Part shown: in pieces, positions 19,901 through 51,103 of the stretch | Numbering within the stretch: the first letter of the stretch is position 1 | Layout: each line of letters starts with the position of its first letter | NCBI RefSeq assembly: GCF_964188315.1 | Contig: NC_135661.1 | Coordinates: 49,600,001-49,664,000 of the forward strand | Length of the DNA stretch: 64,000 nt | Reading direction: 5' to 3' | Source: Podarcis muralis | Lineage: Eukaryota | Position numbers and translations under genes: made by a program | Notes under the pieces: generated by a model | The model's input: the letters and a program-made list of their open reading frames with translations, nothing else | The model's database searches: none | Told to the model about the DNA's origin: nothing

Positions 19901-22662
19901 AAATTGGTTAGTCTTTAAAATGCCACAAGGCTCTTTCCCCCCCTTCATGCCACAGACTCACAAAGCTACCTTTATTGAAATAGGTTGTGACGCCTGGTTT
20001 CCGGAAGTAAGCCCCAGTGAACTTATTGGGGCTTGCTGCTCAGTGAGCATGCATATAATTCCACTGTAAGCATTTTCCCCACCCATTGAGTCTGTATTTC
20101 TAAGTCTCATGTTTGATCCCTTCACTTCTGGTATGATAGACAGTACCAGTCCAGGTATAACTTGCCACCAAGCAAAGGGAGGCCACAACAGTGGTGCATA
20201 CTCAAGTTGGGGGTGTTTGCACCTGATAGATGCTTTCCATTACAAGCAAAACACTATTTCAGCTGCAGTAGGTGATATGCATCTACATAGATAGACTAGT
20301 CAGCTAACAAGATTAGGATGCTAAGTTCTTGGGGTAGATCAAGGGTTGTGAACCTGAGTAGCATTGGTCTCACAAGGACCACTGCTGCATTTTAGGACCC
20401 TAACCTCCCCAGAGTTCTCCAGATCTTATCTGACTGCAGCAAGCAAAAAAGATTCAGCATAGCACAGAATTTAGAGGTTTATTCCAGCCTACAGGAAAGG
20501 TCTACAAGAAACAAAATTTGGAAAGGTCTGCATAACATTTGGAAAGTAGCAGCACCATGTTTAAACATACACTTCTGCTATTTTTTGCCCCTTATTTCTT
20601 GTTGATATTCAGTTTAATAAACCACCAATATAAGGACAGGCAGATGGCTATCTAGAAGAATTCCTTTTCATGTAGAAGCCTTCAGTTTTTTTTGCTACCT
20701 TGTTATTATTAAAAAAGAAAAGAAAAGGAAGGAAGGAAGAAACAAACAGCTGGTGTTTAATGACTCTGTCAGACCCAATTAAAAAACATCAACTAGTTAC
20801 TTTGATTTGTGCTCAGTCATGCCATGGGTATACTTAAAAACATTAGACTCCGCCAGAGCTCATTTTGGCTTTGTTCACATTTATCTTTTATACCTTTAAG
20901 GCTATTGATGGCATATAACCAATGTTACAGCCCCTTTCTAGCCATCAATTTTTAATCTAAAAAGATTCTAAGAAGCAGCAAGTCTCATGTGTAGTTACTT
21001 GGGCACTTAAACTCCAGAGTATGCATTACTTGTGTACTAGAAGTCGGAGAAGATAAATGATGAAGGCTGTTCGGTTACTCTGCTTCAAAAGCCAAAAATT
21101 TTGATATCAAAATATTTACAATTTCTGCTTAACGCAATTATACTGCTTTTTTAAAAAACAAGAAAAGAAAGAAAAGAAAACTCATTATAAGGGAAGAAAT
21201 CAGGCAGTACAAGAAAACAGTTCCTGTAGTAGAATTGCAACCCTGAAAATAAAATATTACTATTTCTGCTGTTCTCAAGCAATGAAACTTCAGTCAGTAG
21301 AAAGATGCCCCTATTACTGGACACACCTGCTCTGGGCTTTGTATACTCTCACCAGCTGGAAAGGATTGTACCAACTTCTTTCCTCCAACTTCTTTTCTCC
21401 AATTTCTCTGCACTCACTGTAAGATGTATGGACTCAGAGATAGGCTTTACTGCCTTTAGTTAAAAAGAATGGCCCATGACTCCATCAGGGAGACTTCCCA
21501 TCAAATATATGATGGGTGCTGTGCCAACACAGCCTCTAAGCTCCAGAATCCCACCATGCAGTCAAAGTGCTGAACCTTTTAAGGAGGAACCTGGGTCCAC
21601 CCTTGCCAACCTCTCCCACACTGCCTAACAAATTAGCTACTATTTCTAGTTTTTGTATTTTTAAAAAGTGGTCTAGCAGCCATGCTGAACTTTTTTAAAA
21701 AAACGTAACCTACATAAAAATAATAATTATAATAATCTGATACTGATAAAAAGCAGTCAGGCCCCGAGAGTGTGAATTGACAGGGGAGATGCAGATGGTT
21801 CCTGTTGCTATCAAAGGCATAATGCAAATATGTAGACTGAATCATATGGGCAGGGGGAGTAGGAGAAAGAGACAAGAATCTGCTTGGAATCCTTTCTTGT
21901 CAGATCTTGTAAAATGCAATTGGCCATTTCTGAATCGAGTAAGTTAATAGTTGACATCCTGATGCCATTAGGCTTTACTACAAAATGCCAAGGAGCACTC
22001 TGCTAATTCTTGTGTTGTAGAACACATTCCAGTGTTCCATTATTGGTCTTGGTAAGTCTAGAAATCAAAGTACCTATACCTTGTCAATTTGGGCAATCAA
22101 ATGTGTTTCTATAAATCTGATTACCTTTCCAGGTGGTTTTTTTTAAAAAAAATGATTTCCCAGTTGCACTATCCTCACCCCGCTATAGACATCAGTTGAT
22201 CAATAAATATTTTGTATGCCTAGAATGTGCTCTCCTTCAGAACCAGATATATGTTCTGGTGTTCATAAGATCCAGCAGTAGGTGTGTCTTGTCACAGTGT
22301 GTTTTGAAACAAAAACACCCACCCCTTGGTGAAATGTTTGGCGAAAAGTCATATGAATTCAGCCTTTAATGCTTTTATTTGGCTTATTAAGGCTCAGTAA
22401 CACACAGTTAGCAAATCTTGTTTTAGATTCCTGCATCCTTCCCATGTGGGCTTTGTTTATTTAATTTGCTTGCTTGTTTATTTGTTTCTTTATTTACTTT
22501 GCCTAAAACCAGTATGGATTACACAATAAAACAGGCCCTCTCTGCAGGTTTAAATAGATACATTCATATCTTCTTTATCCAAATGTGTTTAAGTAAAAAA
22601 AAAAAAAAAGCAATTGTATTAATTTAGGAAGCCAGGGTGAATGGGCATGTCTTACAGAGCTA

Positions 22663-22686
22663 AACGACTAAACAACAACAACAACA
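22663..22686 (+). mobile_element. Minimal BovB/RTE tail insertion (24 nt)
   Basis: aacgactaaacaacaacaacaaca matches the BovB-type 3' tail; 9-bp TSD acagagcta at 22654-22662 and 22687-22695. Confidence 0.75.
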
Positions 22687-23079
22687 ACAGAGCTACGTGA
22701 GTTTAGCAACAGTCAAATATCATATGGGTGGTCATGCCAGTGGTGGTAGAGAGCTGAAAGTGAAAGAAAGAGAATGGATAAATCTACTCCCTCATATGAT
22801 ATGGACATAATTTTGTAGACCTTACCCATTTTCCATTCTATTTTTAGGAAGTTGGCAAGTTTTTAGTTTATAATGAACCAATTTACTTGATATATAACAC
22901 TATACTCCTGATGTCTGTGGAGCAAATGTCCTTCCTAACCAAGAGAAGAATTTAGGAAGACTGTTGCGTGCTGAGGACCCGCAAAACCCCTACCCCAATA
23001 ACTCAGACAACACACATAATTTTTGTTTTAGGTTTTTGGCATAATTTTTTGGCCACAACTTTATTTATATACAAATTGA

Positions 23080-23422
23080 GAGTGGTTGTTTAGGCATTGG
23101 TTATGACTACCTGTCCCCCCCCCCCCGCCTTGGGGGACAGCACTGACTCCCTAGCCAGTCTCGGAGGAAACATGGTCAGAGTCAGATGGAGCTGCGTAAC
23201 AGACCCTCACTGCTCCGCGCATGTTCCTTGAAGCTTACGCGGCCCGCACCCTGCCGTCAGGGTTTGGACGAAGGGGATGGTAAGCTTCAGAATTCCTTTA
23301 ACGGAAAACCCGTCAGCAGCAGCATTGGAGGGGCAGGCACAGCCAATCCATACCCCTCCACCAACCAATTTTAACCAATGCCTAACCGCCATTCGAGCCC
23401 TTACGCTCGCCGCCAACCACTC
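23080..23422 (-). ncRNA. Highly structured 3' untranslated domain of the YR retroelement
   Basis: At least 8 complementary stem pairs found by eye, enclosed by an outer stem 23080-23103 / 23372-23422 (see findings). Confidence 0.6.
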
Positions 23423-24011
23423 ACAAACTAAACCACACCCTCAGCCTGGACACTAAAGCGTCCAACCACACATCATTCCCAACTGGCGAGAGATGAACCC
23501 CGTCATCCCTGTAAAATTCAATTGCCTTGAATGAAATCAGAGGGTGAGGGATAACTGCCCCACCCAGATTCACCACCAGCTTGCTTGCTGCGGAATTAAT
23601 CCGCTTCCTTACCCGTTCGGTGGCAGCTGGGCAAGGGCTACCCCGCCAAATGCGGCGTTGCAATAGCTGTGACCAAATTATCTTAGTTGACGGCACCAGT
23701 GCCGCCAGTTCTTTAAGGTCCAGTAATATGGTGGCACGCAGCACAAAGCAGGAAGATGATACCATATCGTTCTCCCCAAGCTGCACCACGATCGCTGAAG
23801 GAGGGCCACATCGGAGGACACGCCTTCGAATGAGAGGTAAAAATTCCCTCCACAGCATCCCCCTTCTGGAAATCCAGGACACCTGTACGTGGTGCGGGAA
23901 TCCCAGGCCATCACCCAGTCCGGACTGGCGAGCTCTGTCCGCAGCCCAGTGCACAATACTGTGCCCTACTATCCAGATACGGATAGCAGCCCGACCTAGG
24001 GTAAAACACAC
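23421..24011 (-). CDS. SGNH/GDSL-family hydrolase of the YR retroelement
   Basis: Motifs IVGHS (Ser), RRG, LGEND (Asn) and DGVH (Asp/His) are intact. No in-frame ATG upstream of the catalytic Ser; the track start is GTG. Confidence 0.85.
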   Translation of the reverse strand: MCFTLGRAAIRIWIVGHSIVHWAADRARQSGLGDGLGFPHHVQVSWISRRGMLWREFLPLIRRRVLRCGPPSAIVVQLGENDMVSSSCFVLRATILLDLKELAALVPSTKIIWSQLLQRRIWRGSPCPAATERVRKRINSAASKLVVNLGGAVIPHPLISFKAIEFYRDDGVHLSPVGNDVWLDALVSRLRVWFSL

Positions 24012-24032
24012 ACATATAAATACAACAACGCA

Positions 24033-24908
24033 TTATTTCCGTACGTAGGCTTTAAATGCATCCGATCGCCACCGACCCAGGTCCTTTATCCTCTTAACTG
24101 ACAGACCCCAGTGTGCAGCAGTTGTAGCCGCTCCAATCCTAAATGAGTGAGGGGCAAACTCAGAAGCCGGCAGGCCACAAGCCGCCACAGCTTTTCGTAA
24201 CACTCCATTAAACTGGTGCCTCACCAGCGGGCGGCCATTTTCATGTATGAACAGGGGCCCTTCGCCACCAGGACGCAAGGCTAAATACTTCGTAAGGTCC
24301 TTCACTGGGCAAGGGCCAGATTCGCCCGTCGCCGGGAGTGTAATGACAGCGCCCCTGCCTAGTTGGTCCGTCTTTGAATTCCTAACGTTAACCTGCAAGT
24401 CCCTTGGAGACACACTAACGTCCTGCATCAGCAAACCCCTTGAACCCCCGTCCAGCTTGCGCTCAAGGACCACTTCCCCGATTCTTAGGGCCCCAAAGAA
24501 AGTTAATGAAAAGGCTGCTGAAAATAGCCGAGCCTCAAATTTCGACCAACAGATGCTCCGCAGCTTAGACCGCATCTGCGCCAGCAGATCAAATGTAATG
24601 GGTCGTCTGGCAATGGTCCTGGAAGGAGTGAGTCGCCCCCATCCCTCCAGGGCCCTACGCACTACAAACTTCCTGCACGGATCTTTGTTGAAATATGCCT
24701 TATTAAAAAAGGAGATCGCTGCAGAATGTAGCCGAAGGGTCCTAGCTGCCCTACGCATCTGGAACAGATGCGCCAAATACCGGAGCACCTGAGAGGTGGA
24801 ATGGGGGGTGGAAACTTCCCCCACGGACTGCCCGCTAAATAATAAAAAGTCCGCCCAAGCCTTTTTATAGGACCTCAAGGTAGAAGGTGCAACAGATGCA
24901 GCTACTCC
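24033..24908 (-). CDS. Tyrosine recombinase (phage-integrase family)
   Basis: APSTLRSY N-terminus; catalytic R (LRIGE), K (NSKTD), HSFR, W (GRW) and Y (AYVRK). The frame is open upstream of the TTG at 24878; the true start is unknown. Confidence 0.93.
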   Translation of the reverse strand, partial: GVAASVAPSTLRSYKKAWADFLLFSGQSVGEVSTPHSTSQVLRYLAHLFQMRRAARTLRLHSAAISFFNKAYFNKDPCRKFVVRRALEGWGRLTPSRTIARRPITFDLLAQMRSKLRSICWSKFEARLFSAAFSLTFFGALRIGEVVLERKLDGGSRGLLMQDVSVSPRDLQVNVRNSKTDQLGRGAVITLPATGESGPCPVKDLTKYLALRPGGEGPLFIHENGRPLVRHQFNGVLRKAVAACGLPASEFAPHSFRIGAATTAAHWGLSVKRIKDLGRWRSDAFKAYVRK

Positions 24909-24916
24909 CTGTAAGA

Positions 24917-26521
24917 CTAAGTTCTGCCAAGGTTCCAGAGATGATCCGGGAAAATTTCCGGACGGTCTCGAGCCACTGGCACCAGGGACCTGAAACGCTC
25001 CATCTGAAAACGGGACAGAGCATCAGCAATATCGTTAGAAATTCCCGGGACAAAACGGGCAGAAAACACAATGTTAAAACGCAAGCAGTGTAAAACGAAG
25101 TCCCGAAGAAGGGCAGATACCCTAGGGGATCGTGAAGACTGCTTGGCCAGTACATTCACCACCTCCTGGTTATCGGTCCAGAAACAAACTCGGTGATCCT
25201 TGAAATGCTCGACCCATAAGTGCACTGCCACTACAATGGGAAAAAACTCGAGAAAGGTTAGGTCCCGCGTTATAGCCTGCCCCTGCCAAGCAGGCGGCCA
25301 GCGCTCAGCACACCACCTACCATCCCAGTACAAGCCAAACCCCAAGGACCCCGCAGCATCAGAATGGACCTGGAAGTCATTGTGGAGGTTCAAAGTGTCC
25401 TGCCACAATGACACCCCATTGAACTCTTCCAAGAATTCCAACCAAATTGCAAGGTCAGCCCGTACCTGAGCAGGAAGGCGGACCCTGTGATGCGGGGCCT
25501 GCAAGCCCGAGGTAAGTCTGGCCAAGCGCGAACAAAATGGACGCCCTGGAGAGACCACCCTGCAAGCAAAGTTCAGGTGGCCCAGCAACGACTGAAGTTG
25601 CCGCAGGGAAACCTTCTTTAATGGAATCATCTCCTCAATGACCTTTCGCAAATTGGTTATTTTCTCCAGCGGCAAGCTAGACGTTTGGGCCACGGTATCC
25701 AGCAGGATACCCAAGTAAGTGAGCTGCGTAGAAGGACCTTCGGTCTTACCAGCCGCTAAAGGAACACCCAGATCTTCCGTTAAGGAAGCAAAGGCCTGCA
25801 ATAAAACTACGCAGTCCCCTGTATTGCCAGCCGAAGCGACCAAAAAATCATCGAGATAATGCGTGACACCGCTCAAACCGGTTTTTTCACGCAAAGCCCA
25901 TTCCAAAAATGAACTAAAACACTCAAAAGCCGCACAGGCGACTGAGCAACCCATGGGCATAGCTTTATCGAAGTAAAAACTACCTTCGAACCGAAATCCC
26001 AGCAACCAAAAATCATCGGGATGAATTGGAAGCAGCCGGAACGCCGATTCAATGTCGCACTTTGCCAGTAAGGCACCCGGTCCGAATTTCCGGATCATCT
26101 TGATTGCGTGATCAAGAGAAGCATACCTCACCGAACAAAGCTCCGGGGGAATCACATCATTTACTGATGTGCCCCTAGGATGTGAGAGATTATGGATCAG
26201 GCGAAATTCGCCCGGGGCTTTTTTGGGCACTATGCCCAAAGGTGAAATATGCAAATTGGGCAAAGGTGGGACAGCAAAAGGGCCGGCCATGCGACGTAAA
26301 GCTAATTCTTTATCAATTTTCTTACGCGCCACCTCTGGCATATCCCTAATCGATTTTTGGTTCGCTGGGTTTTTGGCAACCGGGGCAGAGACCACCGGGA
26401 TTCTAAAACCTAAAGAAAAACCGTCACGCAAATAAGACGCCGCTTTGGCATCAGGGTACGACTTCAACAAAGAAAGTAGCGGCTGCAGCCTTACTGGGGT
26501 GTAAGCTAAAGAAGAAATCAT
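24917..26521 (-). CDS. Reverse transcriptase + RNase H
   Basis: VPKK..FRLI.NLS, KCDIESAFR, MPMG, YLDD; RNase H residues SDAAG, LEFFP, TDNQ, ADALSR; 534 aa uninterrupted. Confidence 0.95.
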   Translation of the reverse strand: MISSLAYTPVRLQPLLSLLKSYPDAKAASYLRDGFSLGFRIPVVSAPVAKNPANQKSIRDMPEVARKKIDKELALRRMAGPFAVPPLPNLHISPLGIVPKKAPGEFRLIHNLSHPRGTSVNDVIPPELCSVRYASLDHAIKMIRKFGPGALLAKCDIESAFRLLPIHPDDFWLLGFRFEGSFYFDKAMPMGCSVACAAFECFSSFLEWALREKTGLSGVTHYLDDFLVASAGNTGDCVVLLQAFASLTEDLGVPLAAGKTEGPSTQLTYLGILLDTVAQTSSLPLEKITNLRKVIEEMIPLKKVSLRQLQSLLGHLNFACRVVSPGRPFCSRLARLTSGLQAPHHRVRLPAQVRADLAIWLEFLEEFNGVSLWQDTLNLHNDFQVHSDAAGSLGFGLYWDGRWCAERWPPAWQGQAITRDLTFLEFFPIVVAVHLWVEHFKDHRVCFWTDNQEVVNVLAKQSSRSPRVSALLRDFVLHCLRFNIVFSARFVPGISNDIADALSRFQMERFRSLVPVARDRPEIFPDHLWNLGRT

Positions 26522-26522
26522 G

Positions 26523-28042
26523 CTATTTTCCTGCTCCCGTGGCAGGGGCTTGCGTAGTGGCTTTTGGGGGCTGCTGAGAGCCCCCTCCTTTCCGAAAGGG
26601 GCGGCGGCCTACCTGGCACACGGACCCGGAATGGTTCCCTGAACACTTATCGCACACATGTGCGTATTTGCAGGATTGCCGTGTACAAGCGCCCTTATTA
26701 AAATCCCAGCAAAAGGGCTTACGTCCCACCCTTGAAGGGGCAGCCTTAAACTTCTGGGTATCAGGGACCTTCTTGTCTATACGGGGGGCCACATAAGTGG
26801 TCCAGACGTCCAAGTCCTTCCGATCCCAGCGGGCCGTAGGGATCTTTGCCGCCCTCCGCCTAAAATTCTGGTCGTACGCTAACGCAGCAGTCTCTCCACC
26901 CATTGTGAAGGCGGAACGGACTATGGATAGGTACACCCAAAGATGCACGGATCTTCTAGGATAAGCCGCGGCCACCACTCCGGCAAAAACCTGGAAACTA
27001 TCTAACCATCGCTCGAAGGTCCTATCTGCCTTAGCTAAGACCGTCCGCTTCTTTGGAACGGGCAGACCCTTGTCCAGAGGCTCCTGGCCTTCCAGCGGGG
27101 GGGCCAGGCTGAATATATCAACATAGCGGCCGTCCAATATCCTGGCACGCAATTTGGAGGACAGGTGAGCCCCAGGAATAATGTCCCTGGCCGAGTTGGT
27201 GGAGACCTTTACATCCGGCACCAGGACCCCTTCAAGGCAGTCTTGCACTGCTCCGTACCTGGCCCTATGGGAATTTGCCCTCCGCTCCCAAACCCATTTC
27301 GGGAGCCCCGAGGTTTCCCCATAACCCCAGTATAACTTAAGGGGGGCCTCCTCATCACTACTCGTGCTCTGGGATGACTCACCTGACGAAGAGGAGGAGG
27401 TGTCTCTACGTCTCCTCTTGGCACGTTTCTTCGAACTTTTCTTACGGCGGCGGTGACCACCAGAGGATGCCTTCGGAGGAAGAGGGAGGCTATCCTCGAC
27501 CGACGACTCTGATGCATCGCCCTGCTGCGGAGTAGCTGGAAGTGACTGGAAAGACACAACCTGTGAATGACCAGGCATCGAGGTGCCCACCCCCGCGGGC
27601 TGCAAAGGTAACCTCCGCGCGACCAGACCCCGTGCAGGTGCCCTCTTTCCAGCCCCCGCCCGGGTAGAAACCCGACCCCGTGGCACGGCAACCTGCGGCA
27701 CAGGTGGCACCGAGGACCGAGCCTGAGGCGCGTCAGGCAAGGGGCCACTGGCTGGCAGTGGCTCTCTTCTTCGCTGGATGAAGACAGTGGAGACGAAGCA
27801 TCTACAGGTGGAGCCAGCATGGCAGAAGTTGACGGTGTCGAGTGGCGATGCATCAGACCATCCAGCTCCGTCTCCATCCTTGCCAGAGCCACCGGGTCGC
27901 CAGCCAAACTGGAGACCATGGATTGAAGGCGTCTCACCGACTGGCCAGGCTCAGGGGAACGTAAGGCCTGAGACGGGCCTCTTATGGGCCGCTTTGTGGC
28001 GCAGGCCGGACCAGACTTCTTCGTCGCCTTCTTTGGGGCCAT
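26523..28042 (-). CDS. Gag-like ORF1 with C-terminal zinc fingers, one frameshift near 27750-27760
   Basis: N-terminal part MAPKKATKK...SSSSEEE (ATG at 28042) continues in another frame as EPLPASGPLPDAPQ...; C-terminal CWDFNKGACTRQSCKYAHVCDKCSGNHSGSVC (CCCH plus CCHC-like). Confidence 0.8.
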
Positions 28043-28337
28043 TCCTACTACTGGTATAAAATTAAAAAAAAAAAGAAATTTAAGTTAAAATAAAATCAAA
28101 TAAAATTTGAGAATTGACAAGTAGGACCGAGTAAAGGATTATTGATGAATTAACGGTAAAGGCTCTAAAAGAATAAAGAAATAAAGTTAAATAAACAATA
28201 AAAATTAGATCAGGTACCAGTAGAAGCGAACGACCGCCCGGCACCAATACACTACGGCGTGGCAGAACCTAAGATAGCCAAGCCAAATGCAAGGCACCAG
28301 GTATCAGGCAATGCGGCCTATGCAAATATACCAGTGA

Positions 28338-28501
28338 CCACTAGAGGCCGTCACCTAAAAAAGAAAATGCACTGTTATACCTCCTGCGGCCACCAGAGGC
28401 CGCCACTCAATTTATTTAATTATTGTTCTATTTTTTAAGGCCCTGCAATTGCAGGGACTGACCACCAGATGGCGCCAATACAGAAAGAAGGCAAGATGGC
28501 G
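28338..28501 (+). promoter_or_regulatory. Cluster of three CTCF-like motifs plus a YY1-like motif
   Basis: ccactagaggccgtca (28338), ccaccagaggccgcca (28390) and ccaccagatggcgcca (28462), all in the same orientation; caagatggcg at 28492-28501. Confidence 0.65.
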
Positions 28502-29500
28502 CTCCCGCCAAATTGCCCGAAGAAGGAGGCAGCCCGGGGGACCCACCCGAACCAGGTGAGTCGATTCGACCCAGGCCGCCCCGCTGGCGCCCCAAAAGCC
28601 TTAAAGGCAGGGAACAGCCCACCAGCCGGGCCCACCCGGCCACAGGAATCCCAGGCCGCTGGCGCACACCCCCACCAGGCGCAGGGGCCTATCAACGCCC
28701 CGCGCCTGTGAATCGGGGCCTCGCGGGCCCGAAAAATTGCCGCGAGGCGGGGGGGCAGCCGGGCAAAGCCCAGGCCGCAGCCGGGCCGCGACGAGCCGCG
28801 GCGCCCGCAGGCCCAACGCGCCCCGAGCCGCGATGCCCGGCTCAGCGCGGCCCGTCGATCGAGGCGGCCACGCGCCCCGCGCAGGAGCCCGGGCACCAGG
28901 AGGGCCTCCAAGGCCAAACGAGCTCCGGGGGGCAGCGGGCGGAGCGGAGAGGCCGCGGCCGGGCCGACCAGGCTGCGACGCGCCGCGGCGCCGCAGGCCC
29001 ACGCTCCGCGGGCCGCGATGCCGGGGCAACGCGGCCCGACGCCCGCGACAGCCGCGCACCACAGCCCCCAGGCCCCGCGAGGGTCCCGAAGGCCCGACCG
29101 GTCCACGGGGCAGCAGGAGGAGGCCACGGCCAAGACGAACAGGCCGCGGCAGCACCGCCGCGCCCGCAGCCGATGTGCCACGGGCAGGTGCCGCCCCCGG
29201 GGATCAGGCCTCACCGGGCCGAAAGGCCCAAGGGGGGGAGACAGAAAGGCGCAGGCCCCAGCAGGGCGACCAGGCCCCGGCGAAGCCGCGAGGACCAGGC
29301 CCAGCAGCGGCCGACCAGGGCGAGCAGAGTACCAAGGCCCCCCCCCCAAGCTGTAGGGAGGCCGAGGGAGGAAGGGAGGCTGTTCCCCAACTGGCCCGGG
29401 CCTTCTGGCTCGGCCGAGAACCGGGCCGTCAGCCACCCAGGGCCAGAGGCCTCGTCCTCCCCCCTACCGAGAGCTAAGGCCCCGCTACTGCCCCAGAAAA
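28480..29500. promoter_or_regulatory. CpG island within the element's 5' leader
   Basis: About 1 kb of extremely GC- and CpG-rich sequence against an AT-rich intron background. Confidence 0.8.
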
Positions 29501-29627
29501 GCAATAAGGAAGGAAATTCAGAAGGAAGGGGAAATCAGGAGGAGAAAAGAAAGACAAAGGGAAAGGGACAATCACGGGAATATACAACCAACTCTTGCTG
29601 AAGGCACACGGTGCAGATAGATCCGAT

Positions 29628-29805
29628 GTCCACAGCAAAAGAGAAAGAGAAAGCTGTGGACCCTGCTTATATAAGGGAACTAATCCCACCCCTCAATTGG
29701 CAACATCAATTTTGCCCTAGTAACAACTACGACCAATCTGCTCCAGCCCATTGCCATCAATGGACTGGTCACTAACTAGGGTTTTGCTTGGCCCCATCCG
29801 CAACA
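29628..29805 (-). promoter_or_regulatory. Putative Pol II promoter at the element's 5' terminus
   Basis: CCAAT/ATTGG boxes and TATA-like CTTATATAAG (29666-29675), followed on the minus strand by a 9-bp hairpin gtccacagc/gctgtggac (29628-29661) with a pyrimidine-rich loop where the TSS would fall. Confidence 0.55.
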
Positions 29806-29831
29806 CGTGCTCTCTCTTTATGAGAACACGC

Positions 29832-30314
29832 TTTGTTGTTGTTGTTTAGTCATTTAGTCGTATCAAACTCTTTGTGACCCCATGGATCAGGGCTCGCCAG
29901 GCACTCCTGTTTTCCACTGCATCCCGCAGTTTGGTCAGACTCATGTTTGTAGCTTCGAGAACACTGTCCAACCATCTCATCCTCTGTCGTCCCCTTCTCC
30001 TTGTGCTCTCTATCTTTCCCAACATCAGGGTCTTTTCCAGGGAGTCTTCTCTTCTCATGAGGTGGCCAAAGTATTGGAGACTCAGCTTCACGATCTGTCC
30101 TTCCAGTGAGCACTCAGGGCTGATTTCCTTAAGAATGGATAGGTTTGATCTTCTTGCAGTCCATGGGACTCTCAAGAGTCTCCTCCAGCACCATAATTCA
30201 AAAGCATAAATTCTTCAGCGATCAACCTTCTTTATGCTCCAGCTCTCACTTCCATACATCACTACTCAAAAAACCATAGCTTTAACTATATGGACCTTTG
30301 TTTGCAAGGTGATG
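29832..30314 (-). mobile_element. 5'-truncated BovB/RTE LINE 3' end
   Basis: Peptide RVPWTARRSNLSILKEISPECSLEGQIVKLSLQYFGHLMRREDSLEKTLMLGKIE...RQRMRWLDSV; (CAA)n tail; closely similar to the 4481-4901 copy. Confidence 0.9.
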
Positions 30315-30340
30315 AACTATTTATTTGTTTATTTTTAAAG

Positions 30341-30605
30341 GTTCACGGATATTAAAGACAACTCAGGAAAACTTGACTTCAACTCACTTTCTCCATCAAA
30401 GAAGGAATACTGGTCTATGCTGGCCTACAACCGGTCTAAGTTGTGCAATATTCTTTTATCCAATGAGCTGAACCGCCGCCTTTCTCCCCATGGGGTGACA
30501 TCAAATGCAGTGCATCCTGGAAATATGATGTACACATCCCTTCATCACAACTGGTGGCTGTTTACCCTGCTGTTTACCTTGGCTCGCCCTTTCACTAAAT
30601 CCATG
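30341..30605 (+). CDS. WWOX: WWOX coding exon (human exon 8 equivalent)
   Basis: ttttaaag|G TTC ACG...TCC ATG|gtaagt, 265 nt. [88 protein letters not shown] carries the catalytic YxxxK (YNRSK). Confidence 0.98.
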
Positions 30606-32858
30606 GTAAGTGAACTACATTTTATACATCTTTGGATTATTAAGTGTGCTAGATTTTCAGAAATCCTGCTGTAACTTTCTTATTTCAGCAGTGTTTCATA
30701 ACTGCTAACTTCAGCAGTGGCTACCATAACCATGAAACTCTGAATAAAAGAGTCTGCATTTCTAGCTTGCTTTGATTGCTTTTTGATAGACAGTTGTGCA
30801 TTTTCAGTGTCATGCAATTCTGTGCATATATGTTGTGTACAGTGTGAATATCAAGTGAGTCTTTGCTGAGGGGTGGATCAGAAATGTGAGAGAAGAGAGA
30901 GGTGGAACTGCAGATAGCATTATGCTTGGGAGATGCTATAAAGATGGGATGAGTAGAAGAAAAATAAATGCTGACATCTTTTTGAAAGCAAAACAACAAC
31001 AACTCTGAAATATATGAATGATTAACTCCATAGCATCTCATTGACTTTCATAACATCTAAAATTTGGAGCTGTTTTCATATACTTGCTACAGTTCTGCCT
31101 TAAAACAAAATGTTTGTGTTGGCACCTAGGGAAGCAGAAAAGTATCAAATCTTAAGGCTGCCAGAGCTTAGCAGATGTTTCAGTGAACGGAATTTTCAAA
31201 TTCTTTAGCATTAAAAATAGCTAGAAATCTGAGGTGCTTGGGTTACACTTTCTGTTTCGGTGCAGAGCCAACCATTGTGCTTGAGTTTTAACAGATGTGC
31301 TGTTTTTTTCCAAGTGGATGGGAATGCTTTTTTTCAAGTGGATGGGAATATAACACTACTACTGCTGTGTAGTTATAAATTATAATCAGAAAAAATTCTT
31401 AACCTTAGATAGATATAGTGAAATAATTGTATGCTCGAGCAATATGCCTGCATGTATATGCCCCAGTGCCACTAAGAAGATCCATGGTGGTAAGAAGATT
31501 AAAGCATATATATTTCTTGCTGGATTGGTCAAGTGAGATACACATTTGGATACACCTGAATATTTATCTGACTGATAAAGGTGAGATATACTGTCCTGAA
31601 TAGATACTAAATACTTTTTTTAAAATGAAAGCTCAGATTCTGGGCGTACCTGCCCAGGGGAATTCCTAGAAACCTTCATGGGCACCTTGTTTATATCATC
31701 CATAAACAAATCTCCTGATTCAGTAGAATTGCTCAGATATGTTAATGATAGTTTAAAGGAGGATTTAAGAAGCAATACTTTTAAAAAATCCTGCTTTATT
31801 ATTTTCAGTCTTTTCATTTTTAGCACACCTATGACTTTACCTACCACCTACTAAAGCTGACAGTACTTAAGTAGTGAACACATGGTGCAGTAGATTCATG
31901 AATGGCACCCAATATGCTTACCTTTCCTTAGCTGAATGCCAGCTTGTTCTCCACCTTCTTTTTTAATTAAACTTTAAAATGAACAATGAAGAGCAAGAAC
32001 AGAGAAACACTTGAGATTATTGGCTTGGAAGAAAATGATCTGCACCCTAGAGAAAGCCAATTGCACATAAGCAATTCCCCAGTGGATCATATTTAGCCTG
32101 GGTGTCAGCACAAAACTCTTGACATTGAATCCTCCCTCACAGACCAAGTCATCAAACCATCTTTGATCATGCTTTATGCAACAGCAGTTTCAGTTATTAA
32201 ACCTCCTACAGGGTCTGCTGCTGGCAGGCTAAACCACTGTTATTTCTTTTTTTTAAAAAAAAAACCCAGCCAGGATCAATCCAAATAGAGGCAGAAATCT
32301 TGAAATCCCCTGTTCACAGTGGGCACCACTGAAGTGGTTTTGAGGCTGTATTCTGGCAGTTCAGGATGCCAGTTCATACTGAAGTAATTAAAGTTATGCG
32401 TTCTAAATGGTATAACTATTCTGATTCTAGTTAGCTTGTAGGCAGATCTCAAGTACGGAAGAGCTTGCATTAAACTTCAAAGTGTTAGTGAAGTAGTGGG
32501 GAACCTGCCCTCCTCAGTTCTTACCCTTTGTTTTTGGACTTCCACTCCTGTCATCACCAGCCTGCATGGCCAATGGTCAGGGCTTATGGAAGTTGCAACT
32601 ACTGAAGGGCCACAGGTTCTCCCCCCCTGGTTTAGTGTATAATATTTTCACTATTGGTAATTTGGTAACTTAAATATAATATCTTACCAAAGTTGTTCAG
32701 TCCTCACAAAAGTAAGATGTTTAGTCAAATACTCAAGAAATCAAAAGTCACATGCAAGGAACCAGGAGAACCAGTCAGACATACAAAAAGCTGAAGAGAA
32801 AAGTAAGTTTTTCCAGAGAGTAAAAAAGTCCAGGGACTTAGCTACATTGGTCAAATTA

Positions 32859-49541: not shown

Positions 49542-49846
49542 TGTTGGTGTGTTGGGGTGGGGATGTGGGTGCTGGTACGCTCTGGTGCCACCATAGTGCT
49601 GGTTGGGTATCAGATTTTAGCCTGATTGTGGGTTGTGTTATTAAGGTTGGAGTTGTTTTTCCTTAGTATGGAGTATGAGGATGTTGAAGGTGTGGGTGAT
49701 GGGGAATGTGGTTGAGGTCGTATGGACTGGTGTTGGGGTGGGGATTTCTGTGGGGGTGCGGGGCTGGGGGGGGTGTTGATGGTGTTAACTAAATCTATGT
49801 TTTGGGGGGGAGGGGGAAAAAAAGGGGGGGGGAAATCACCAGTCCT

Positions 49847-51103
49847 TCAGTTTGTGGTTTTTTCCTGGTTGCTTCTTTCAGCCGGGGTTGTTGTTGTTGT
49901 AGGGTTGTCCATCTGCGATGAGTTGGTTTGGTTGATCTTGGTCTGGTTTCTTGTGTCGTATGGTCGGCGGGACGGTTCTGAGCATGATGCTTGCCTGTAT
50001 TGGTTTGTGTTGTTGCGCCGCTTCTGTTGTATCTTTTTCTTCTGTACCATTGTCCAGTTGTTTGCTGTTGTTTCCTCATGGTTGGGGCTGTCGCTTGGTG
50101 GGTTTGTCGGTTTCCATTCCGGCGGGAGGTCGAGTTCAAGGTTCTTTAGTAGTTGCAGGGCCTCGGGTATGTTGGTAGCCATGTGTTGTGTTGTGTTCGT
50201 TGTTACAATGAGGCGGAAGGGGAAGCCCCATCGGTATTTGATCCCTGCTTGTTGGAGACGCTGGGTGCATGGGCGCAGGCTTTTCCTCCGGTTTAGGGTA
50301 TCCTGCGATAGGTCCTGTAAGGCCAGAATGGGGGTTTCTCCATATCGAAGGTTGCTTGAGTTTCTGAGTTGATGCCATATTTCTTCCTTCTTTCGGTAGC
50401 GTGTGAAACATACAATGATGTCTCTTGGGGGGGCGCTGGGTTTTGGCATAGGTTTTAGGGCTCTGTGAGCCCTCTCCAAGTCCTCTGCCTCAAGTTTCAG
50501 GCTTGGGATTGTGTTTTTCAGCCAGCGTATAATTAGGTCCGCTGGGCTTTTCTCCTCTGTTTTTTCAGGAAAGTTGCGGAAGCGGATGTTACAACGTCTA
50601 TTGCGGTCTTCAAGGTCGGCTTGCTTAATTTTCATCTCGTTGTGTTCTGCTTCCATTTGGTTTACCAGTTCGTCCAGTTTCTTGTTCACACGTGCGTTCT
50701 CCTCCCGGTATTGTTCTATTATTCTTTCTTGCATTTGGTTCTTGTTCTCTAGAGCTTCCACTTTGGAGGTTAGATTGTTGATTAGTACCTGCATGGGAGC
50801 CATTGTGGCCTTCAGTGCTTCTTCTAATCGTGCTTCCATTTCCCTCAGATCTCGTTTCGTTATTGGGTGGTCATCATCTTGAAGGGGAGCTACCATCTTA
50901 GCATTGTTTGCCATCTCCCTGGTTGGTGTCATCTCGGTCTCCCTGATGGTTTTGGTTTGAGGTTGGCTTGGCGTCCTCTTGGGGTTGGGCGTGTGATGGT
51001 TAGGAGTTGTGGCAGTGGTGATTCCTGGGTATTGTTGGGTTGCTGAGCTGATCAGGCTTTGTTGGCTGGTGGCTTTTACAGAGCGTTTCGATTAGGTGGT
51101 CAT
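49847..51103 (-). CDS. L1 ORF1 (coiled coil + RRM + CTD); in-frame TAA at codon 4 of the upstream ATG
   Basis: LEDRNRRCNIRFRNFPE, ERAHR, PRDIIV, QDLS...RR, YRWGFPFRL are L1 ORF1p hallmarks. The frame is open from 51091 to 49847. ATG at 51103 is followed by ACC ACC TAA; the next ATG is at 50932. Confidence 0.88.

What the first reader, a model, noticed from the sequence alone, without database searches (positions are those of the whole stretch)
22960..29806. YR retrotransposon with bipartite att-like inverted ends and no split direct repeats
Protein content is Ngaro-type (no methyltransferase, SGNH ORF), and Ngaro elements normally show A1-ORFs-B1-A2-B2 repeats (established). I find no duplicated A or B, and no DIRS1-type long ITRs. 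Instead, reading inward, both ends are TGTTGCG-N(11-12)-GCAAAACCC: 22962-22989 on + and 29805-29779 on -. A 2-nt AC is shared at both junctions (22960-61, 29805-06). Circularisation would create the dyad CGCAACA-C-TGTTGCG, a plausible recombinase core site with flanking arm sites (inference). This is either a distinct end architecture or a B1/B2-collapsed copy.
Basis: partly seen in the sequence, partly recalled or inferred. Interest (0 to 1): 0.7.

Follow-up and report, generated by a model that had tools for sequence, protein, structure and literature searches.

The report
Ngaro retrotransposon missing one end-repeat unit
This is an ordinary copy of a known jumping-gene family that lacks one 0.8-kb block of its usual end repeats, likely lost by an exchange between two identical repeats; its odd inverted end motifs are parts of a hairpin predicted to form across the family's joined ends.

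Summary
The motifs exist, but they are not the element's ends. Sister copies and the empty site in three other runs put the insertion at 22964-29832. The 'shared AC' and the proposed dyad are not real junction features.

The family is standard Ngaro: 17 of 24 close ORF-bearing copies have A1-ORFs-B1-A2-B2 and 7 of 24 look like the window, A1-ORFs-B. Two copies carry an extra unit, and solo A-B units are common. The 11 collapsed copies never group together on a tree. So this is a repeated, dead-end loss, not a new end architecture.

One residue is real. The B end and the A start are predicted to fold into one long hairpin across the true B|A junction, with subfamily-matched arms. It may be a single-stranded recombinase substrate; this is untested. 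Insertions follow R-B-A-W.

The scan noted both the collapse and the hairpin before, in other genomes (e1-8591272, e1-9510353).

The parts
22964..29832 (-). Ngaro-type YR retrotransposon, collapsed form A1-ORFs-B (6869-bp insertion)
   Evidence: copy comparison; empty site in 3 runs
29619..29832 (-). A repeat (A1), about 215 bp
   Evidence: 94% to A2 of sister L021
22964..23391 (-). single B repeat, 428 bp; its ORF-side neighbour sequence is that of B1; A2, spacer and the second B are absent
   Evidence: 97% to B of L021; upstream 40 nt match the B1 context, not the B2 context
26526..28057 (-). gag-like ORF with C-terminal zinc-finger-like motif; split between two frames near 27765-27800
   Evidence: ORFs; weak zf-CCCH_10 hit below cut-off; tblastn with L022 gag gives two frames
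24917..26608 (-). RT / RNase H ORF, open over 563 codons
   Evidence: RVT_1 E 3e-12; YLDD and RNase H-type motifs (motif labels recalled)
24033..25022 (-). tyrosine recombinase ORF, open over 329 codons
   Evidence: Phage_integrase E 1.7e-6, Phage_int_SAM_4 E 5e-5; R, K and HxxR motifs located
23421..24032 (-). SGNH-hydrolase-like ORF, 203 codons
   Evidence: Lipase_GDSL_2 E 0.004, below the curated cut-off; G-H-S, GEND and DxxH motifs
22964..22990 (-). B-side arm of the predicted junction hairpin (inner arm 22964-22975, outer arm 22981-22990)
   Evidence: folds and arm pairing
29779..29832 (-). A-side part of the predicted hairpin: 5' stem-loop about 29807-29831, inner partner 29789-29805, outer arm 29779-29787
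29833..29835 (+). TTG shared with 22964-22966; the target reads R-B-A-W on the element strand
29833..30270 (-). host repeat: 3' end of an RTE/BovB-like LINE; the element sits in its (AAC)n tail
   Evidence: ORF 29846-30214; very high read depth; empty site restores the tail; family name recalled
30339..30606 (+). host exon of a short-chain dehydrogenase gene (WWOX-like, name recalled); the element lies upstream, likely in an intron, antisense
   Evidence: adh_short E 8e-4; SDR-family structures matched; GT follows the open stretch

Best explanation
This is a copy of an ordinary Ngaro retrotransposon family that lacks the roughly 805-bp A2-spacer-B unit, likely because of an exchange between its two identical B repeats at or soon after insertion. 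Shown: the family has split direct repeats; copies carry 0, 1 or 2 units; unit-less copies arise again and again from standard lineages; the insertion is absent from three other runs. Inferred: the exchange most likely happened during cDNA synthesis or end joining (B1 used instead of B2); a later chromosomal crossover is almost as likely. Inferred: with no internal B|A junction the copy cannot rebuild its ends from its own transcript, so it is a dead end in cis; gag is also split. Inferred: the YR joins the element's AA|AG junction to a host R-B-A-W site with no target duplication. Predicted: the inverted motifs pair with each other in a long hairpin of the sense strand across that junction.
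For: 17 of 24 close ORF-bearing copies are standard and 7 of 24 collapsed. In the first 100 listed B-end matches: 18 standard, 1 expanded, 5 collapsed, 53 solo-type, 3 unclear. A second expanded copy is L120. Tree of 38 rows: 11 collapsed rows need 11 changes, forced by starred branches; the window's sister is standard L021. A1/A2 differ by 0-3 bases in 16 of 16 measured standard copies. Collapsed L140 and L028 are 0 and 0.2% from a standard copy. Empty site in X1, X6, X16. Target bias: R at -4 in 95 of 99, A at -2 in 98 of 99; AA after B in 116 of 117. Partial loss of SDRs and solo AB units are in print (passages of PMC9210276; PMC8547959; PMC6681497).
Against: No read or contig from an individual carrying this insertion was seen, so an assembly collapse of B1-A2-B2 is not directly excluded. 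B1 and B2 are near-identical, so the crossover point cannot be placed (417 vs 416 of 429 matches to L021's B1 and B2) and the timing cannot be fixed. Solo units outnumber collapsed copies about 10 to 1 although B repeats are longer and closer than A repeats; plain chromosomal recombination does not predict that without added selection or age effects. The tree counts changes and has no root, so loss is inferred from the literature's standard form, not from the tree.
Confidence: 0.88

Rival explanations
1. Assembly collapse: the real allele has B1-A2-B2 and the assembler merged the two B repeats.
For: B1 and B2 are 430-bp near-identical repeats about 380 bp apart; no carrier reads were seen.
Against: The same assembly (185 contigs, 1.52 Gb) resolves copies whose repeats have 0 mismatches and even triple arrays (L119, L120).
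Confidence: 0.06
2. The recombinase itself removed A2-spacer-B2 after insertion, recombining the internal B1|A2 junction with the B2|flank end. The mirror reaction would give solo A-B units.
For: The product has the same sequence as a B1xB2 exchange. Solos with 0 differences from standard copies exist (4 of 49) and solos are in excess.
Against: No direct evidence; 0 of 60 single B ends is followed by an A, so the internal junction is not seen to act as an integration site in full circles; expanded copies need another route.
Confidence: 0.1
3. One reading: a distinct, self-propagating YR element with bipartite att-like inverted ends, a shared AC and no split repeats.
For: Both motifs are in the sequence; about one in four or five ORF-bearing copies has the unit-less form.
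Against: Ends misplaced; AC not shared; no two collapsed copies are sisters, 0% of bootstrap trees group them; the nearest relative is a standard copy.
Confidence: 0.02
4. On the hairpin only: it acts in the RNA or cDNA during reverse transcription (priming, strand transfer, end joining or packaging), not as the recombinase's substrate.
For: The sense strand folds better than the antisense in 40 of 40 junctions, and several conserved pairs are G-U/G-T wobbles, which suits RNA. A 3' mRNA hairpin was proposed to prime DIRS-1 reverse transcription (passage of PMC7192593).
Against: The exchange point sits in a 1x1 mismatch in mid-stem between two duplex arms, with a bulged A nearby; the fold is also stable under DNA parameters (mean z -5.5).
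Confidence: 0.5

Closest known systems
Ngaro superfamily, hydrolase-bearing type (Xenopus DIRS-53_XT / DIRS-54_XT; passages of PMC9210276)
   Same: gag, RT/RH, YR and SGNH ORFs in that order, no methyltransferase, A1-ORFs-B1-A2-B2 repeats in sister copies; copies with partial loss of SDRs are reported there too.
   Different: A about 215 bp and B about 428 bp with a 165-bp spacer (236 and 152 bp in DIRS-53_XT); this copy lacks A2-spacer-B; the host is likely a reptile (inferred from the BovB-like LINE), whereas that paper names amphibians for the hydrolase ORF. No tree with reference elements was built.
Solo AB repeats of Cafeteria Ngaro (passages of PMC8547959) and SIRE = A2-B2 of VIPER (passages of PMC6681497)
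   Same: Derivatives made of the split repeats; solo A-spacer-B units are the commonest form here (53 of the first 100 B-end matches).
   Different: The window is the complementary product: it keeps the ORFs and loses the unit.
DIRS1-like elements (passages of PMC3266345; PMC7192593)
   Same: YR integration with no target duplication at a short junction word; ends NTT or NAT there, TT or AT at the same place here (93 AA, 5 AT, 1 GT on the sense strand); linear single-stranded cDNA intermediates shown for DIRS-1.
   Different: No ITRs, no inverted ICR, no methyltransferase here.
Integron attC sites (listing and abstract starts only: PMC2727003, PMC5027507)
   Same: Works-like lead only: a tyrosine recombinase and a strand-specific fold-back with conserved shape, variable sequence and unpaired bases.
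   Different: Bacterial cassette system; no test here that the Ngaro YR uses folded DNA; the IntI-specific helix was not looked for.

Membership tests
Ngaro | gag-like, RT/RNase H and tyrosine recombinase ORFs on one strand | tested here: met
   gag split between two frames
Ngaro | no methyltransferase domain | tested here: met
   no Dam family hit in 5 of 5 element ORFs at E 0.01
Ngaro | split direct repeats A1-B1-A2-B2, in the family | tested here: met
   17 of 24 close copies; 163 junction matches
Ngaro | split direct repeats A1-B1-A2-B2, in this copy | tested here: not met
   one A, one B, no spacer: a derivative, not a complete element
Ngaro | optional SGNH hydrolase ORF after YR | tested here: met
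   Lipase_GDSL_2 E 0.004, below cut-off; motifs present; ORF kept in sister copies
Ngaro | no target-site duplication | tested here: met
   empty site differs only by the 6869-bp insert with a shared TTG; flanks of 99 and 117 junctions
Ngaro | RT or YR falls in the Ngaro clade with reference elements | not tested
   no reference Ngaro sequences were fetched; the tree holds own-genome copies only
DIRS1-like | inverted terminal repeats with internal complementary region | tested here: not met
DIRS1-like / PAT | methyltransferase domain after RNase H | tested here: not met
attC-like folded recombination site | one strand folds into a long imperfect hairpin whose pairing is kept while sequence varies | tested here: met
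   prediction only: z -7.3 RNA, -5.5 DNA, sense better in 40 of 40; own-partner arms p 0.0008 on 8 representatives; mixed controls
attC-like folded recombination site | the recombinase binds and cleaves the folded strand; replication resolves the junction | not testable with these tools
   needs biochemistry

The most novel reading that the evidence does not exclude
Ngaro elements integrate as single-stranded DNA: the B end and A start fold into a 40-bp imperfect hairpin that places the AA|AG exchange point in a mismatch between two duplex arms, as integron attC sites do. One strand exchange into any R-B-A-W site, resolved by replication, would explain the loose target, the element-derived AA at 116 of 117 3' ends, and the collapsed, solo and expanded forms as by-products of choosing among B and A copies when the hairpin closes.
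Probability: 0.3. Interest if true: 0.65.

Novelty: new member of a known kind. Interest (0 to 1): 0.27.

Why it matters
As an end architecture it does not matter: it is a common decay product of a known family, and the result warns against calling ends from one copy. The by-product has some value. How YR retrotransposons integrate is still open; PMC7192593 (passage) says YR specificity had not been tested. This family gives a precise junction, a measured target bias and a predicted, subfamily-matched hairpin, which together define short substrates for a direct test of duplex versus folded single-strand recombination by a eukaryotic YR.

Tried and rejected
AC as shared dinucleotide or TSD: rejected. 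TGTTGCG dyad as circle junction: rejected; the real junction is seen in sister copies. Termini belonging to a separate solo LTR that hosts the element: rejected; the B repeat has the ORF-side B1 context and the empty site lacks both A and B. The longer inverted repeat 22660-22684 / 29833-29857 is two host LINE tails, not an ITR; it also causes the false joints. Permuted form (A-spacer-B-A-ORFs-B): not seen in 60 single B ends. Laying contigs over the whole element was swamped by other copies and did not test this allele; X13 did not reach the junction. Dating collapse against age is confounded by uneven sampling and gave no trend. RNAalifold on a plain MAFFT alignment found only the inner 16 pairs, covariation term -0.05. 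One search used a mis-registered structure string and is void; one search is the corrected count. Goodwin and Poulter 2004 and Poulter and Butler 2015 are not held. The TOC1 solo search gave nothing that I read.

Full report
Anatomy. The minus strand of 22964-29832 carries four ORFs: a gag-like ORF, RT/RNase H (RVT_1, E 3e-12), a tyrosine recombinase (Phage_integrase, E 1.7e-6) and an SGNH-like ORF (Lipase_GDSL_2, E 0.004, below cut-off). No methyltransferase family was hit. RT, YR and SGNH frames are open; gag is split between two frames near 27765-27800. The element interrupts the (AAC)n tail of an RTE/BovB-like LINE, upstream of an exon of a short-chain dehydrogenase gene (the names BovB and WWOX are recalled).

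The ends. Searches of the own genome with both ends each returned 40 scored matches. I fetched 38 loci: all 24 other matches that include the ORF side of B, and 14 apparent solos. Homology to the window starts at about 29832-29834 and ends at 22964. Contigs of other runs agree: X1, X6 and X16 follow the left flank to 22966 and go on for 22, 16 and 21 letters as window 29836 onward; X13 stops short. The insert is 6869 bp, TTG is shared, nothing is duplicated, and the insertion is polymorphic. No contig bridging flank and element was seen, so the allele itself was not checked against reads.

The family. Of the 24 close ORF-bearing copies, 17 have B1-A2-spacer-B2 and 7 end after one B, like the window (for L055 the A1 end lay outside the fetched stretch). 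A1 and A2 differ by 0-3 bases in all 16 copies measured. The junction 16-mer has 163 exact matches and the B-end 17-mer 398, with 0 for both reversed controls. I classified the first 100 listed B-end matches. Thirty-nine fall in 18 pairs and one triple, all of standard order. Of the 61 single ends, 53 are solo-type (spacer before B), 5 are collapsed, and 3 are unclear (L061 with decayed ORFs upstream; L102 partial; L085 no B). L119 and L120 carry two A-spacer-B units. The unit thus occurs in 0, 1 or 2 copies.

Not a lineage. On a tree of the YR-SGNH DNA of 38 copies, the 11 collapsed rows need 11 changes; no bootstrap tree groups them, and shuffled labels need fewer changes (mean 9.6). The window's sister is standard copy L021. 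Left out were the expanded, the most divergent and the decayed loci (L119-L121, L123, L124, L127, L135-L138, L142). Some collapsed and solo forms are 0-0.5% from a standard copy (2 of 11 and 10 of 49), so they form at or soon after insertion. The data cannot separate an error in cDNA end joining from an early chromosomal crossover or a recombinase-driven deletion. The 10-to-1 excess of solos over collapsed copies is unexplained.

Target. In 99 distinct 5' host junctions the four bases before the element read R (95), not-A (96), A (98), A or T (93, 6). In 117 3' junctions AA follows CACGC in 116, and the next bases are close to random. The target mimics the B-side GCAA of the junction. This parallels the NTT/NAT termini tabulated for DIRS1-like elements (passages of PMC3266345).

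What the motifs are. Forty distinct B|A junctions from sister copies are predicted to fold into one long hairpin: mean z -7.3 with RNA and -5.5 with DNA parameters, the sense strand more stable in 40 of 40. Outer arms change together between subfamilies: among 8 dissimilar representatives own-partner duplexes average -17.8 against -13.1 kcal/mol for others (permutation p 0.0008; control segment p 0.15). A named 29-pair structure is 90% paired, with 9 pairs changed on both sides against 4.9 +/- 1.0 in shuffles. Against: the structure was read from these same sequences; the +1 slid control has a higher covariation score (0.099 vs 0.087); RNAalifold recovered only 16 inner pairs with almost no covariation; with all 37 arm pairs the control segment also reaches p 0.026; the junction core was selected by pattern, so its conservation is partly by construction. 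The fold is well supported as a prediction; its role is not tested.

Literature. I saw passages only of PMC9210276, PMC8547959, PMC7192593 (and section 27), PMC6681497, PMC3266345, PMC4157794 and PMC3783388; listings only for the attC papers. Split repeats, the SGNH ORF, partial SDR loss and solo AB units are in print. Searches showed no paper describing a Ngaro junction hairpin or attC-like use, but the two founding papers are not held and no supplements were read, so novelty of the hairpin is uncertain. Two unreviewed notes of this scan report a collapsed Ngaro copy and self-pairing Ngaro ends in other genomes; I saw the first before the tree and the second before the fold tests, after which I ran those tests here.

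Verdict. An ordinary, collapsed Ngaro copy (confidence 0.88). The claimed end architecture is not real. The junction hairpin and target bias are a modest, testable lead. Interest 0.27.

Noticed in passing
L119 (G000:C3:60296000-60305900) and L120 (G000:C5:72856000-72865900): Copies with two tandem A-spacer-B units, the reciprocal of the window's form.
   Followed up: partly
L062, L081, L101, L103, L109, L114: Six solo A-spacer-B units 0-0.2% from the unit of full-length L119 or L127: a very young subfamily in which solos appear at once; they might also move on their own, as was discussed for SIRE.
   Followed up: partly
L140 / L126 and L130: Copies whose YR C-terminus, SGNH and B match the window's family while RT and YR N-terminus are far more distant (34-43% aa in L140): likely recombinant subfamilies.
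   Followed up: no
window 28435-29460: GC-rich, CpG-rich 5' untranslated region with degenerate internal repeats; it diverges much faster between subfamilies than the ORFs.
   Followed up: no
window 45000-51000: About 6 kb of strong G and T skew (GC skew up to 0.46) with no tandem array inside it; likely a LINE on the minus strand.
   Followed up: partly
window 22660-22690 and 29833-29857: Two oppositely oriented LINE 3' tails flank the element and mimic a 25-bp inverted repeat.
   Followed up: yes
L054 (G000:C8:15150000-15155000): A solo unit whose B repeat is interrupted by a 1.5-kb insertion.
   Followed up: no
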